18,155 nucleotides of DNA from a virus (taxonomy: Duplodnaviria; Heunggongvirae; Uroviricota; Caudoviricetes), in the IMG/VR virus record IMGVR_UViG_2645727510_000017; one strand, given 5' to 3'. Positions 1-3,000 of the stretch are shown here, piece after piece (within the stretch, counting starts at the first letter, position 1; each line of letters starts with the position of its first letter). The position numbers are program-made.

Positions 1-3000
1 CTGTCGGCTGCCGTTCTGGCGCTGATTGCCGCAGGTGCGCCTGCGCCTGAAATCCTCGACCAGTTTCTGGATGAAAAGGAAGGTAACCACACCACGGCAT
101 ACCGTGATGGCGCGGGTATCTGGACCATCTGTCGCGGTGCCACCCGGGTGGATGGTAAGCCTGTCCTCCCGGGCATGAAGTTGTCGAAGGAAAAATGCGA
201 CCAGGTTAACGCCATTGAACGTGATAAGGCGCTGGCATGGGTGGAGAAAAACATCAAAGTGCCACTGACCGAACCCCAGAAAGCGGGGATCGCGTCATTC
301 TGTCCGTACAACATTGGTCCCGGTAAGTGTTTCCCGTCGACGTTTTACAGACGAATTAATGCAGGTGATCGCAGGGGAGCGTGTGAGGCGATTCGCTGGT
401 GGATTAAGGACGGTGGCAGAGACTGCCGTATTCGTTCAAACAACTGCTACGGTCAGGTATCCCGTCGTGACCAGGAGAGCGCGCTGGCGTGCTGGGGTAT
501 CGACAGATAAGCAGAATATTTTGCTGAAAAATAAGGCATGGCCACGCGGGCGGATAACACGAAATCCTGCGAACTGGCGAAACGTAAGTGAATAAAAGTA
601 AAAACCCCGTTTGTTGGCAGCAAGCGGGGTTTTGTTTTTATGGCAGTAAGCTATGGGAGGCTGCCTTGATTGATTTTAGCAAACTGATTAGGGAGTTGCG
701 ACTCATGATTAGTCAATTACCAAACTGGAAATTTTTGCTGGTCTGGAGCATCCCTTTTTTATGGGTAGTATCCCAGTTAATTGTGGCAATTAAGGGGTAG
801 CTATGTCAGACAAACTCATAACGCCGGCAAAGGTCCTCTGTGTGATTGTCGGTATTTCATTTTCACTAATGCTGGTTGCTCTTTTTCTGTCCCTCGCCTG
901 GGTGATGTTGTCTTCGTCGGGGCTGCTGGGGTGACAGTGACTGATGACATCAGCAGAGCGCTGGCTTTTGCTATTAAGTGGGTGGCTGTTGGTATTGCTG
1001 TGTCTCCGATGCTATATGGGCTGGCAAAACTGGTCATTGCGCTGAAATCGTGAACTTTAAAAAGATGAGTGCTGAACTTATTCGGGCAATGGCATTTGCC
1101 ATTCGTATTGTGGCCATTGCTGTTCTGGTCTGGGCAATCCGTTGGTGGTGAAATGAACCGCGTTCTGTGTGTGGTCATCATTGCTCTGCTGGTGGCCTGT
1201 GGTGCGCTTAGTCTGGGGCTGAATCATTACCGCGATAACGCCATCACTTACAAAGCGCAGCGCGATAAAAAAGCCAGTGAACTGAAGCTGGCGAACGCAA
1301 CCATTACTGATATGCAGGTGCGCCAGCGCGATGTTGCTGCGCTCGATGCAAAATACTCGAGGGAATTAGCCGATGCGAGAGCTGAAAATGAAACTCTGCG
1401 TGCTGATGTTGCCGCTGGTCGTAAGCGCCTGCGGATCAACGCCACCTGCTCCGGTACCGTGCGTGAAGCCACCGGCACCTCCGGCGTGGATAATGCAACC
1501 GGCCCCCGACTGGCAGACACCGCTGAACGGGATTATTTCATCCTCAGAGAACGGTTGATGACAATGCAGAAGCAGCTGGAAGGGGCGCAGGAATATATCC
1601 GTACTCAGTGCCTGAAATAAGTTTTGTTGATGCGCCGTATCGTCGCTGTATTCCCTCATTAACAGAGACCGCAGCCCGACAGGGAGACTCCTCTGCGCGA
1701 GTGTGCGGGGATAATCAAAAACGATACACACCGGGGTTTACCGCGTTAACGGAGCGCGGCGTTGTCCCCTCATAGTCGCCAGTCCGGTGCGATGGTGGAA
1801 GAAACAGGACGATGTGTTACCTCGCAAGCCCTGTTATGTCATGTGTCTGATTTGTGATTTAAGTCGGATAATTGTCGTTGCCATTAAGCAGAGGATTGAT
1901 GACCGACAGGGCGGCATTGTTAGAATAAGACTTATTTTTATCTGTGCGGGGAATGAAAATGAAAAGAAATCTTCCGTTAATTATTTTGTTGTCTTCTCTG
2001 GTTATGGGCTGTACGCAACATAAAACAGATATGCCCCGACAGTTGGTTAAGGCATTACCACAATATCCGGCCTATGCAGCGGCAAATTATATAAAGGGAC
2101 GGGTTGATGTGAGGTTTGATATTGGTGCTGATGGTACTGTCACCCGAATTGAGTTTATTCGTTCAGAGCCGCACCATCTGTTTGATGAGCAGGTTGTAAA
2201 GGCGATGGCAAAATGGCGATTTGAGAAGGACAGGCCGTGTAAAGGCGTGAAGAAAACGTTTATCTTTAGTCCTTCTGCACCCTGATTATTTCATCAGAAA
2301 TTAATTATCACTCTGTTGTTATTCTGTACATCCCGGCAGGGTAAGTCTTGTTCCGTCGGATATGAAGATGAAATATTGTGGGAGGACAGTGGGTACCTGC
2401 TCCTGTAACCGAACGTTCATTTCTCGTTATTTGTCATGCTGGCCGGGCGCAGATGCGTTGCATCTGTTGCCAGCCTTCTCCTGCAGGCTTCAATAACCCA
2501 CGCTGAAAAGTTACCGGAACCTTTATGTTCAAGGGCGATATTGATCTGTTCAATCATGTGATTGGGGAAACGGATGTTGCGGGTTGTTGTTCTGCGGGGC
2601 CGGTTTTTCGATGACATTTTCTTTCCTCTGGTGACAAGCTATATGGAGAGGATTTTACATGGCTGTGCTTCGTACGTTACCGGGCAGAATCAAAACACTG
2701 AATACCCGACGGGTGAATATTCTGAAGGGTGAACAGCGTCGTGTCAGTGGCAGTGCACGTGTTTCCCTCAAGCGTCATATCTGGCTCAGGGACGCCGGGC
2801 AGTGCCGTCTCTGTGGTCGTGTGGTTGACCTCTGTGACAGTGAACTCGATCACCGAATTGCACTTCAGTTCGGTGGTGGTAATGAGGAGACGAATCTCTG
2901 GACGCTCTGTACCGAATGCCATCGACAAAAGTCTGCTCGTGAAGCGGCGAGTGATATGCCGGACCCGACGCTGCCGGAGGTGTCCGGAGGTAGTGGCAGA

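What the first reader, a model, noticed from the sequence alone, without database searches (positions are those of the whole stretch)
705..1151. Four tandem mini-ORFs for single-TM peptides between endolysin and Rz, two of them paralogous
The interval between R and Rz, which are adjacent in lambda, contains four back-to-back ORFs of 31, 43, about 40 and 28 aa that are missing from the ORF track. They are packed with 1-11 nt spacers or overlapping stop/start (GTGA), the first two have clear RBS motifs, and each encodes one hydrophobic helix. The last two share a motif (SRALAFAIKWVAVGIAV vs [17 protein letters not shown]) while differing at DNA level. A strong terminator precedes the cluster. 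This could be a lysis-modulating, exclusion or small-toxin module; I do not recognise the peptides.
Basis: seen in the sequence. Interest (0 to 1): 0.6.

Follow-up and report, generated by a model that had tools for sequence, protein, structure and literature searches.

The report
Four mini membrane genes before Rz
Between the cell-wall-cutting enzyme gene and the outer-membrane-breaking gene of an E. coli prophage lie four real, conserved genes for tiny single-helix membrane proteins; their families are common and heavily shuffled in enterobacterial temperate phages, including Shiga-toxin phages, but nobody has shown what they do.

Summary
Four same-strand mini-ORFs fill the gap between the SAR endolysin R (ends at 510) and Rz (starts at 1153). 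They follow a strong hairpin terminator (601-633), and each encodes one hydrophobic helix.

Corrections:
- ORF1 most likely starts at TTG 666, giving 44 aa rather than 31.
- ORF3 is an N-terminally truncated copy of a 48/60-aa family.
- RefSeq already annotates three of the four as hypothetical proteins.
- All four hit PHROG families of unknown function.

Evidence that they are genes:
- pN/pS is 0.22-0.50 in the proposed frames, higher in the other frames.
- Length and frame are kept in diverged copies from several enterobacterial genera.
- An ORF2 homolog (XECs191 / EDL933_1392) has ribosome-profiling support in O157:H7.

The families recombine as cassettes: hairpin, conserved leader, then a C-terminally anchored mini-protein. 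They usually sit directly 5' of the outer-membrane-disruption gene, whichever family that gene belongs to. The cassette's 3' end supplies that gene's ribosome-binding site. Cassettes also occur inside baseplate and tail operons.

Function is not shown. My best guess is late-expressed accessory inner-membrane factors acting at lysis. Rivals are exclusion morons, coupling or linker ORFs, and small toxins. I rate this as moderately interesting: a widespread, uncharacterised member of a known kind.

The parts
1..510 (+). 3' part of the endolysin gene R (R21-type lysozyme with an N-terminal SAR-like helix LSAAVLALIAAGA)
   Evidence: Reading frame. Identical copy annotated as lysozyme WP_000992033.1, preceded by a class II holin and a YdfR-family gene.
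601..633 (+). Hairpin terminator with a 5' A-tract and a 3' T-tract. It is the conserved 5' element of the mini-ORF cassettes.
   Evidence: 15-pair stem. -24.2 kcal/mol, z = -4.95. Conserved with compensatory changes in cassettes from seven genera.
666..800 (+). ORF1, family F1. Probable 44-aa form starting at TTG 666 (SD GGGAGG at 655-660). It has an N-terminal amphipathic motif IDFSKLIRELRLMISQLPNWKF and a C-terminal TM helix.
   Evidence: phrog_6632, E = 6e-5. Homologs of 44-45 aa start at the equivalent GTG and conserve the N-terminus. 37 representative clusters. pN/pS 0.44. KD maximum 2.19. Some copies carry premature stops.
803..934 (+). ORF2, family F2, 43 aa. MSDKLITPAK followed by a roughly 26-residue hydrophobic helix and SSSGLLG.
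   Evidence: phrog_4906, E = 4.5e-21. 220 database homologs, all hypothetical. RefSeq WP_001280935.1. The 43-aa length is kept in copies down to 53% protein identity (L011). pN/pS 0.50. Homolog XECs191 / EDL933_1392 has RIBOseq support.
931..1053 (+). ORF3, family F3, 40 aa from the GTG overlapping the ORF2 stop (38 aa from GTG 937). It is an N-terminally truncated copy of a 48/60-aa family. The TM helix is AFAIKWVAVGIAVSPMLYGLAKLVIALKS.
   Evidence: phrog_1115, E = 6.4e-25. 277 homologs for the F3/F4 profile. Full-length forms. pN/pS 0.22. The AF2 model of a 60-aa form shows helix 3-15 plus helix 25-59.
1065..1151 (+). ORF4, family F4, 28 aa, paralog of ORF3. Its last codons, CGT TGG TGG TGA, form the SD-like sequence and the stop-start junction for Rz.
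   Evidence: phrog_4493, E = 3.8e-6. RefSeq WP_032140280.1. z = 5.4 against ORF3. pN/pS 0.34. The junction is conserved upstream of three kinds of downstream gene.
1153..1620 (+). Rz i-spanin gene. Its start lies 1 nt after the ORF4 stop.
   Evidence: PF03245, E = 2.5e-50. phrog_13, E = 3e-76.
1373..1558 (+). Rz1 o-spanin lipoprotein gene, embedded in Rz in the +1 frame.
   Evidence: PF06085, E = 1.7e-21.

Best explanation
The four ORFs are real genes of the phage late operon. They encode tiny C-terminally anchored inner-membrane proteins, with the N-terminus in the cytoplasm and essentially no periplasmic domain.

They belong to recombining families: F1, F2, and F3/F4 (one superfamily). These travel as cassettes made of a hairpin, a conserved leader with an SD, and a mini-ORF. 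The window holds a composite array of four.

In lambdoid prophages they would be transcribed from pR' by Q-antiterminated polymerase that reads through the hairpin. No internal promoter is visible. They would be translated in a chain with Rz through GTGA and TGAnATG junctions. The last ORF's 3' codons provide the SD-like GGTGG for the spanin gene.

My best guess for function: non-essential accessory factors that act in the inner membrane at the end of the lytic cycle. They might tune holin or pinholin triggering, membrane energisation, or spanin insertion and dosage, and therefore lysis timing.

Shown here: anatomy, conservation, purifying selection, cassette behaviour, and association with the endolysin/spanin junction.

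Inferred: late expression, translational coupling, N-in topology, and any effect on lysis.
For: Coding:
- pN/pS is 0.44, 0.50, 0.22 and 0.34 in the proposed frames. The other two sense frames give 0.7-4.9, and the wobble-sharing antisense frame gives a higher ratio than the sense frame for every ORF (0.53, 0.55, 0.32, 0.63).
- Length and frame are kept in diverged copies from Escherichia, Salmonella, Citrobacter, Cronobacter, Providencia, Pantoea, Brenneria and Serratia.
- All four hit PHROG families.
- XECs191, an ORF2 homolog in O157 Sakai, passed that study's RIBOseq criteria: translatome 12.6 RPKM, RCV 0.43, coverage 0.55 in LB.

Membrane peptides:
- KD maxima are 1.9-2.9, with more K+R on the N-flank in the full-length forms.
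- AF2 models a long C-terminal helix.

Link to the lysis cassette:
- The ORFs lie after endolysins of four unrelated folds: SAR lysozyme PF00959, GH19, GH108 and M15.
- They lie directly 5' (1-12 nt) of Rz (PF03245), a DUF2570/LysB-like plus LysC pair, a separated i-/o-spanin-like pair, or a 60-aa lipoprotein.
- ORF2 precedes Rz in most Stx phage records.
- No sigma-70-like promoter was found on the + strand between 511 and 1153.
- Precedent: small TM proteins outside the holin/endolysin/spanin trio can be required for lysis, such as Lcc6 of LambdaSo and Mu releasin (cited there).
Against: - No experiment bears on function.
- Lambda lacks the ORFs (my own knowledge), and so does K-12 Qin, where the endolysin and Rz-like genes overlap. 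They are therefore dispensable for lysis.
- Copy number varies from 0 to 4 and the order varies.
- F1 and F3 cassettes also sit between baseplate genes (SEN34, Pantoea, Dryocola, Serratia) and after a tail-fibre assembly gene. The lysis context is therefore not obligatory.
- ORF1 has an in-frame stop or a frameshift in some copies.
- pN/pS rests on only 7-16 distinct variants per family and is only moderately low.
- ORF3 and ORF4 lack clear SDs.
- The RIBOseq signal for XECs191 is weak and comes from uninduced cultures.
Confidence: 0.4

Rival explanations
1. Moron-type cargo. The mini-proteins act on the host or on competing phages rather than on lysis. Examples would be blocking DNA entry of superinfecting phages at the inner membrane, or countering a membrane-associated defence. 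They sit at the R/Rz junction only because it is a permissive module boundary.
For: - The same cassettes occur at other classical moron positions in late operons: between baseplate genes and after the tail-fibre assembly gene.
- Presence, copy number and order vary between otherwise similar prophages, as expected for arms-race cargo.
- The adjacent TonB_C lipoprotein gene (1956-2285) is a typical moron with its own promoter-like site.
Against: - No promoter-like site precedes the ORFs, and a strong terminator insulates them from upstream transcription. Expression in a lysogen, which exclusion normally needs, is not expected.
- There is no match to PADLOC defence models.
- The conserved stop-start junction with the spanin gene suggests co-expression with the lysis genes.
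Confidence: 0.2
2. Adaptor or linker ORFs. Selection acts mainly on the RNA/DNA. The hairpin, leader and the 3' GGTGG(T/G)GTGA junction would restore translational coupling and dosage of the spanin gene after R and Rz were separated, and would serve as homologous linkers for module exchange. The peptides themselves would have little or no function.
For: - The 5' hairpin and leader, and the 3' junction, are the most conserved parts across contexts. The hairpin shows compensatory changes.
- TM sequences diverge freely while staying hydrophobic.
- ORF1 tolerates stops in some copies.
- In lambda (my own knowledge) and in K-12 Qin, the endolysin gene and the Rz-type gene are coupled by overlap.
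Against: - pN/pS is below 1 in the coding frame. The non-hydrophobic N-terminal motifs are strongly conserved across genera: FSKLIRELRLMxxxLPxWKF in F1, and KYKRILLRLTMKNGLE..AP in F3. An arbitrary leader peptide would not show this.
- One ORF would be enough for coupling, yet arrays of two to four are common.
- The ORFs are also kept where no spanin gene follows.
Confidence: 0.2
3. Small membrane toxins of the type I toxin-antitoxin kind. Hydrophobic peptides would depolarise the membrane and be held in check by a cis-antisense RNA that starts inside or after the ORF and ends at the upstream, potentially bidirectional hairpin.
For: - Size and hydrophobicity resemble TisB, Ibs or Hok-type toxins (my own knowledge).
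- The hairpin has both an A-tract and a T-tract.
- Promoter-like sites on the minus strand lie in the 3' part of F1 ORFs in three of four loci examined: window 809-780, L183 2109-2082, L185 2117-2088.
Against: - Those sites are 9-of-12 matches, at the frequency seen in shuffled sequence. They are not at homologous nucleotides, and one locus has none.
- No Rfam family matches: no hit at gathering score, best E = 0.69.
- No sense promoter is present.
- The ORFs are chained into an operon with Rz, unlike free-standing type I loci.
Confidence: 0.08

Closest known systems
XECs191 (E. coli O157:H7 Sakai; Huecker et al. 2017, PMC5597208), the same gene as EDL933_1392 in phage 933W (Neuhaus et al. 2016, PMC4765031)
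   Same: A direct homolog of ORF2 (family F2). It is a 48-49-aa inner-membrane peptide encoded immediately upstream of Rz in Stx prophages. It was reported as a translated novel small gene and as an annotated hypothetical protein.
   Different: It carries a short N-terminal extension (MGWLMI...). It follows an ant gene rather than ORF1, and stands alone rather than in a four-gene array. No function was assigned.
Lcc6 of Shewanella phage LambdaSo (bioRxiv 10.1101/2024.01.23.576932)
   Same: A very small (65-aa) single-TM phage protein with no known domain. It works with a pinholin / SAR-endolysin / Rz-Rz1 system and acts at the inner-membrane step.
   Different: No sequence similarity was detected. 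Lcc6 has an N-terminal TM and a 43-aa cytoplasmic tail, which is the opposite layout. It is encoded far from the lysis genes and is essential for lysis. The ORFs here are dispensable by comparison with phages that lack them.
Mu releasin gp25 (DUF2730; PMC9239132, as summarised)
   Same: A membrane-anchored accessory lysis protein associated with a SAR endolysin.
   Different: No DUF2730 or any other Pfam match. The ORFs here are much shorter, and they also occur with non-SAR endolysins.
Holins and antiholins, especially the S21-type pinholin encoded upstream in the same prophage
   Same: Small inner-membrane proteins of the lysis cassette. The ORF3 helix has a short resemblance to pinholin TMD2 (KWVAVGIAVSPMLYGL against QWVAIGV-LGSLLFGL).
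   Different: Profile comparison gives only 4% probability. There is a single TM, no charged C-terminal tail and no dual-start motif. The position is after the endolysin, not before it.
Late-operon morons encoding small membrane proteins (for example HK97 gp15 and lambda bor/lom; my own knowledge)
   Same: Small accessory genes inserted between conserved late genes and present in some relatives only. The encoded proteins are membrane-located.
   Different: Classical morons carry their own promoter and a downstream terminator. Here no promoter is seen and the terminator is upstream.

Membership tests
PHROG families phrog_6632 (ORF1), phrog_4906 (ORF2), phrog_1115/3246/4493 (ORF3, ORF4), all of unknown function | Significant profile-HMM match | tested here: met
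   E-values: 6e-5 (ORF1), 4.5e-21 (ORF2), 6.4e-25 (ORF3), 3.8e-6 (ORF4). The 60-aa F3 form gives 5.9e-42.
Holin (class II / pinholin S21 type) | Homology to a holin family, or two TMDs plus a charged C-terminal cytoplasmic tail | tested here: not met
   No Pfam holin hit. hhalign of F3 against the S21-type holin gives 4% probability. There is one TM and a C-flank of only 2-14 residues with at most one K/R.
Holin (any class) | Lethal, saltatory permeabilisation of the inner membrane at a programmed time | not testable with these tools
   Needs expression and membrane-potential assays.
i-spanin (Rz-like) | N-terminal TMD followed by a periplasmic coiled-coil domain long enough to reach the o-spanin | tested here: not met
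   The peptides are 28-44 aa with the TM at the C-terminus and at most 14 residues beyond it. The genuine Rz/Rz1 pair lies downstream.
Type I toxin-antitoxin | Small hydrophobic peptide | tested here: met
   KD maxima are 1.9-2.9 and lengths 28-44 aa.
Type I toxin-antitoxin | Own promoter and a cis- or divergent antisense RNA | tested here: inconclusive
   No + strand promoter. Weak minus-strand 9/12 sites occur in 3 of 4 loci, at chance frequency. No Rfam match.
Type I toxin-antitoxin | Toxicity on overexpression | not testable with these tools
   An experiment is required.
Moron | Present or absent between conserved flanking late genes in related phages | tested here: met
   K-12 Qin has overlapping endolysin and Rz-type genes with nothing between them. 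Related prophages have 1-4 ORFs with or without ant. Cassettes also occur in baseplate operons.
Moron | Autonomous promoter and downstream terminator allowing expression from the prophage | tested here: not met
   No sigma-70-like site lies upstream, and the terminator is 5' of the ORFs. The scan is a consensus scan only.
Mu releasin (DUF2730) | DUF2730 domain | tested here: not met
   No Pfam hit at E <= 1.
Lcc6-like lysis factor | N-terminal TM plus cytoplasmic tail, and required for pinholin-dependent lysis | tested here: not met
   The layout is reversed, with a C-terminal TM. Requirement for lysis is not testable here.
Known anti-phage defence proteins (PADLOC) | Profile match | tested here: not met
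   Zero families at E <= 1 for six representatives.

The most novel reading that the evidence does not exclude
The F1, F2 and F3/F4 mini-proteins are an unrecognised functional class of lysis gene in enterobacterial temperate phages. They would be C-terminally anchored peptides that partner with the outer-membrane-disruption module, whichever family that is. Possible roles are controlling insertion, dosage or activation of the i-spanin, or gating pinholin or holin firing as Lcc6 does. In the holin_8 / GH108 or M15 cassettes that lack any recognisable i-spanin, they might work with the 60-aa lipoprotein (phrog_7528) as a new minimal envelope-disruption system. Because ORF2 precedes Rz in most Stx phages, this would bear on the timing of Shiga-toxin release.
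Probability: 0.15. Interest if true: 0.7.

Novelty: new member of a known kind. Interest (0 to 1): 0.4.

Why it matters
These genes are very common.

- Sequence matching 690-1160 is present in 1878 of 5426 complete E. coli genomes, with up to 12 copies per genome. The complete four-gene arrangement is in 590 genomes.
- ORF2 homologs sit before Rz in a few hundred Stx phage records.
- Despite this, no function is known for any of the families.

Recent work on Mu releasin and LambdaSo Lcc6 shows that the holin/endolysin/spanin scheme is incomplete, and that tiny membrane proteins can decide whether and when lysis happens. A conserved, cassette-like set of such proteins at the endolysin/spanin junction is a cheap and well-defined target for deletion and co-expression experiments.

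In STEC, lysis timing determines toxin and phage release.

If the genes turn out to have no phenotype, the conserved hairpin, leader and junction still describe how lysis modules are stitched together and how spanin translation is maintained.

Tried and rejected
1. Homology of ORF3 to pinholin S21 TMD2. The local alignment gave p of about 0.002 against shuffles, but hhalign gave 4% probability, and F3 also occurs with unrelated holins. Rejected.
2. ORF2 as a duplicated Rz N-terminal TMD (VLCVIVG against VLCVVII). Not above shuffles. Rejected.
3. The four ORFs as fragments of one broken multi-TM gene. They lie in different frames, and each occurs alone or in other orders in other phages. Rejected.
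4. The 121-aa antisense ORF 816-1181. It cannot be conserved where modules are shuffled, and reverse-frame pN/pS only mirrors the sense frame. Rejected.
5. A known sRNA in 450-1250 or anywhere in the window. No Rfam hit at gathering score, best E = 0.69. The Pas sRNAs of Stx-type prophages lie upstream of the holin, outside this window.
6. Pfam, NCBIfam, PADLOC and the PDB gave no significant match.
7. Literature searches for peptide motifs and accessions gave no paper. The Salmonella small-protein census supplements had no match. Phrase searches for genes between the endolysin and Rz found nothing relevant.
8. IMG/VR scans with the F2 and F3/F4 alignments returned only near-identical copies, which were of little use for divergence analysis.
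I used the 46-aa in-frame stretch 660-797 instead.
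Full report
**Where the window comes from.** The interval 511-1152 is 100% identical to prophage DNA in many E. coli chromosomes, for example strain CAU16175. It matches 2068 of 5426 complete E. coli genomes. In the identical copy the gene order is: class II holin, YdfR-family gene, lysozyme, three hypothetical mini-genes, lysis protein (Rz), TonB-family lipoprotein, YlcI/YnfO, HNH endonuclease, terminase. 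The window starts inside the lysozyme gene, whose product has a SAR-like N-terminal helix. Rz (1153-1620, PF03245, E = 2.5e-50) and the embedded Rz1 (1373-1558, PF06085) are canonical.

**Checking the observation.**
- ORF1: 705-800, 31 aa.
- ORF2: 803-934, 43 aa.
- ORF3: 931-1053, 40 aa. Its GTG overlaps the ORF2 TGA.
- ORF4: 1065-1151, 28 aa. Rz starts 1 nt after its stop.

Each ORF has one hydrophobic stretch, with KD 19-residue maxima of 2.19, 2.87, 1.90 and 2.21. Only 6 of 157 ORFs of 25-60 aa in the whole window reach 2.0, so four adjacent ones are not chance. The hairpin at 601-633 is a strong terminator-like structure at -24.2 kcal/mol, z = -4.95. The ORF3/ORF4 motif is real paralogy. 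It shows 9 of 17 identical residues at 57% DNA identity, z = 5.4 against shuffles, and shared PHROG families. Natural chimeras support this too, such as MSADFIRAVAFAIKWVAVGIAVSP... and the GER2 protein, which has an F3-type N-terminus and the ORF4 helix.

**Three corrections.**
1. ORF1 is probably 44 aa, starting at TTG 666 behind GGGAGG. Homologs from Salmonella phages, Stx2c phages, TL-2011c, Providencia, Cronobacter and Citrobacter begin with GTG at that codon. They conserve the upstream residues (V/I)DFSKLIRELRLM over all 43-45 residues at 44-60% identity. An exhaustive profile search found 37 representative clusters with the motif FSKLIRELRLMxxxLPxW(K/R)F followed by a variable hydrophobic helix.
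2. ORF3 is a truncated copy. The family form is 48 or 60 aa (M.KYKRILLRLTMKNGLELKAPVTDDISRA... plus the helix). The homology in the window begins at VTDD, just after the ORF2 stop.
3. The ORFs are not generally missing from annotation. RefSeq calls ORF2, ORF3 and ORF4 as hypothetical proteins, and phage records call ORF1 to ORF3.

**Are they genes?** I took the distinct nucleotide variants recovered from about 180 loci and summed Nei-Gojobori estimates over pairs. This gave pN/pS of 0.44 (ORF1), 0.50 (ORF2), 0.22 (ORF3) and 0.34 (ORF4) in the proposed frames. The other two sense frames gave 0.7-4.9, and third positions vary most. The antisense frame that shares wobble positions gave higher ratios than the sense frame in every case. 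ORF2 keeps exactly 43 codons in copies down to 53% protein identity (L011), and the Stx-phage copies match at about 75% DNA identity. Database searches found 220 (F2) and 277 (F3/F4) homologs. All are hypothetical and almost all come from Enterobacteriaceae. All four hit PHROG families of unknown function. Pfam, NCBIfam, PADLOC and the PDB gave no significant match.

Independent experimental support exists for one family. The ORF2 homolog upstream of Rz in O157:H7 Sakai was reported as the translated novel gene XECs191. In LB it had transcriptome 30.0 RPKM, translatome 12.6 RPKM, RCV 0.43 and coverage 0.55. The study's thresholds were 1 RPKM, RCV 0.25 and 50% coverage. The same gene is annotated as EDL933_1392, next to Rz in 933W.

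The weak points are these. The sample of variants is small (7-16 per family). ORF1 carries an in-frame stop in Cronobacter and in one E. coli copy, and a frameshift in another. The RIBOseq signal is low.

**Anatomy across relatives.** The region is modular. K-12 Qin has overlapping endolysin and Rz-type genes with nothing between them. Other arrangements found:
- R, ant, ORF2, Rz in VT2-Sakai and other Stx phages.
- R, F3 (60 aa), ORF2, Rz in O157 and O145 strains.
- R, (ORF1), ORF2, Rz.
- R, KilAC antirepressor, ORF1 to ORF4, Rz.
- R, F3', ORF4, Rz.

The same families follow endolysins of unrelated folds and precede outer-membrane-disruption genes of unrelated families:
- GH19 endolysin, F3, Rz, and SAR lysozyme, ant, F3, Rz in Salmonella.
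- Holin_8, holin_3_7, M15 endolysin, F1b, then either Rz or a DUF2570/LysB-like plus LysC pair.
- GH19-like endolysin, F1, then a separated TM/coiled-coil plus lipoprotein pair in Citrobacter.
- GH108 or M15 endolysin, F4 or F2 (or arrays of three small TM ORFs), then a 60-aa lipoprotein of phrog_7528.

In every case the last mini-ORF ends 1-12 nt before the next start. Its final codons read ...CGTTGGTGGTGA or ...CTGGTGGGGTGA, which is an SD-like GGTGG.

**The cassette.** The 5' side is equally conserved. A hairpin AAAA(C/G)CCCG...CGGGG(T/C)TTT is followed by a leader TTTCTGCACCTTGA...GGCAAGGGAGAAC.TG and then the GTG start. This is found in E. coli, Salmonella, Citrobacter, Cronobacter, Pantoea, Brenneria and Symbiopectobacterium. 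RNAalifold predicts 17 pairs, of which 5 have compensatory changes. It also predicts a second small stem (CCTTG/CAAGG) that overlaps the SD. The window's leader is a variant with its own stem around the SD.

The unit is not confined to lysis cassettes. In Salmonella phage SEN34 and in Pantoea, Dryocola and Serratia prophages it lies between baseplate genes. Dryocola has an array of three small TM ORFs there. A Salmonella F3 variant follows a tail-fibre assembly gene. In Brenneria and Symbiopectobacterium the unit follows an unrelated 400-aa gene.

**How it most likely works.** Sequence shows directly that the ORFs are co-directional with the late genes, chained by 1-11-nt spacers or overlaps, and have no sigma-70-like promoter upstream. 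The following steps are inference:
- In a lambdoid prophage they are made only when Q-modified polymerase reads through the hairpin.
- They are translated in series with Rz.
- The full-length family forms have a basic N-terminal segment and at most 14 residues after the helix, and AF2 models a short N-terminal helix plus one long C-terminal helix. This points to C-terminally anchored, N-in inner-membrane peptides.

Their recurrent placement directly before whichever gene disrupts the outer membrane makes an accessory role at the membrane step of lysis the best-supported reading. The precedents of Lcc6 and Mu releasin point the same way. I put this at about 0.4. It is not shown. The cassettes' presence in baseplate and tail operons, their absence from lambda and Qin, and their variable number all weaken it.

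**Rivals.**
- An exclusion or host-directed moron (0.2). This fits the patchy, mobile distribution, but not the missing promoter and the upstream terminator.
- An adaptor or linker whose peptides are incidental (0.2). This fits the conserved hairpin, leader and junction, but not the conserved non-hydrophobic N-terminal motifs or the multi-ORF arrays.
- A type I toxin-like module (0.08). This rests only on peptide size, a possibly bidirectional hairpin, and chance-level minus-strand promoter matches.

**Comparison with what is known.** The families are members of existing PHROGs and of RefSeq hypothetical-protein clusters, and F2 includes XECs191 / EDL933_1392. By the tests listed in the membership table they are not holins, spanins, releasin, Lcc6 homologs or known defence proteins. 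I found no paper that characterises them.

**Verdict.** This is a real and correctly described feature. The genes are already catalogued but uncharacterised, and the array here is a composite of shuffling cassettes. Interest is moderate at 0.4. The genes are very widespread, they sit in a medically relevant lysis module, and they are easy to test, but nothing here shows a new mechanism.

Noticed in passing
window 595-668; also L183 1926-2003, L184 1926-2003, L188, L196 and L198-L201 at 2426-2503: The hairpin terminator plus a roughly 35-nt leader (TTTCTGCACCTTGA..GGCAAGGGAGAAC.TG) is a conserved 5' module of the mini-ORF cassettes across seven genera and three kinds of genomic context. It shows compensatory base changes, and a second small stem occludes the SD. 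It is unexplained why a small gene should carry an upstream terminator.
   Followed up: partly
L013 1598-1780, L014 1563-1745, L176 3140-3322, L194 2779-2961: A 60-aa lipoprotein (phrog_7528) has a long basic n-region, an LLVGC-type lipobox and a 30-residue mature part with three Cys. It occupies the spanin position in holin_8 / holin_3_7 / GH108-or-M15 lysis cassettes that have no recognisable i-spanin. It is always preceded by an F2 or F4 mini-ORF. It may be an uncharacterised outer-membrane-disruption component.
   Followed up: partly
window 1956-2285 (promoter-like site 1899-1926): A lipoprotein with a TonB C-terminal domain (PF03544, E = 8.9e-15; lipobox LVMGC) lies downstream of Rz, in the position that bor occupies in other lambdoid phages. 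It has its own promoter-like site. PHROGs files it under 'Rz-like spanin' (phrog_1267), which looks like a mislabel.
   Followed up: no
window 538-591: A 17-codon ORF (MATRADNTKSCELAKRK) and the surrounding sequence, GCCACGCGGGCGGATAACAC(G/A)AAATC, between the endolysin stop and the hairpin, are conserved in E. coli and Salmonella copies. Coding or RNA function is unknown.
   Followed up: no
window 809-780 (minus strand); L183 2109-2082; L185 2117-2088: Promoter-like sites on the antisense strand lie inside the 3' part of F1-type ORFs and point towards the upstream hairpin. The matches are weak (9 of 12), at the frequency seen in shuffled sequence, and none was found in L184.
   Followed up: partly
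L202 2162-2593 (Dryocola clanedunensis prophage): An array of three small TM ORFs sits between baseplate genes: an F3-like 73-aa call, a 34-aa peptide MSEKGANIAGVILAVSALIASMGFAIAVIVYAVR, and an F1b copy. Tandem mini-ORF arrays are therefore not unique to lysis cassettes.
   Followed up: no
L175-L177 241-1359; L187 477-1617: Cronobacter and E. coli prophages carrying these cassettes encode an ADP-ribosylating enterotoxin A subunit plus an LT-IIB-like B subunit. These lie immediately upstream of the holin genes in L175-L177. In L187 they lie between two endolysin genes. This is the position that stx occupies in Stx phages.
   Followed up: no
window 816-1181 (minus strand): A 121-aa antisense ORF spans the cluster. 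It is best explained as a by-product of hydrophobic-codon composition. It cannot be conserved where the modules are shuffled.
   Followed up: yes
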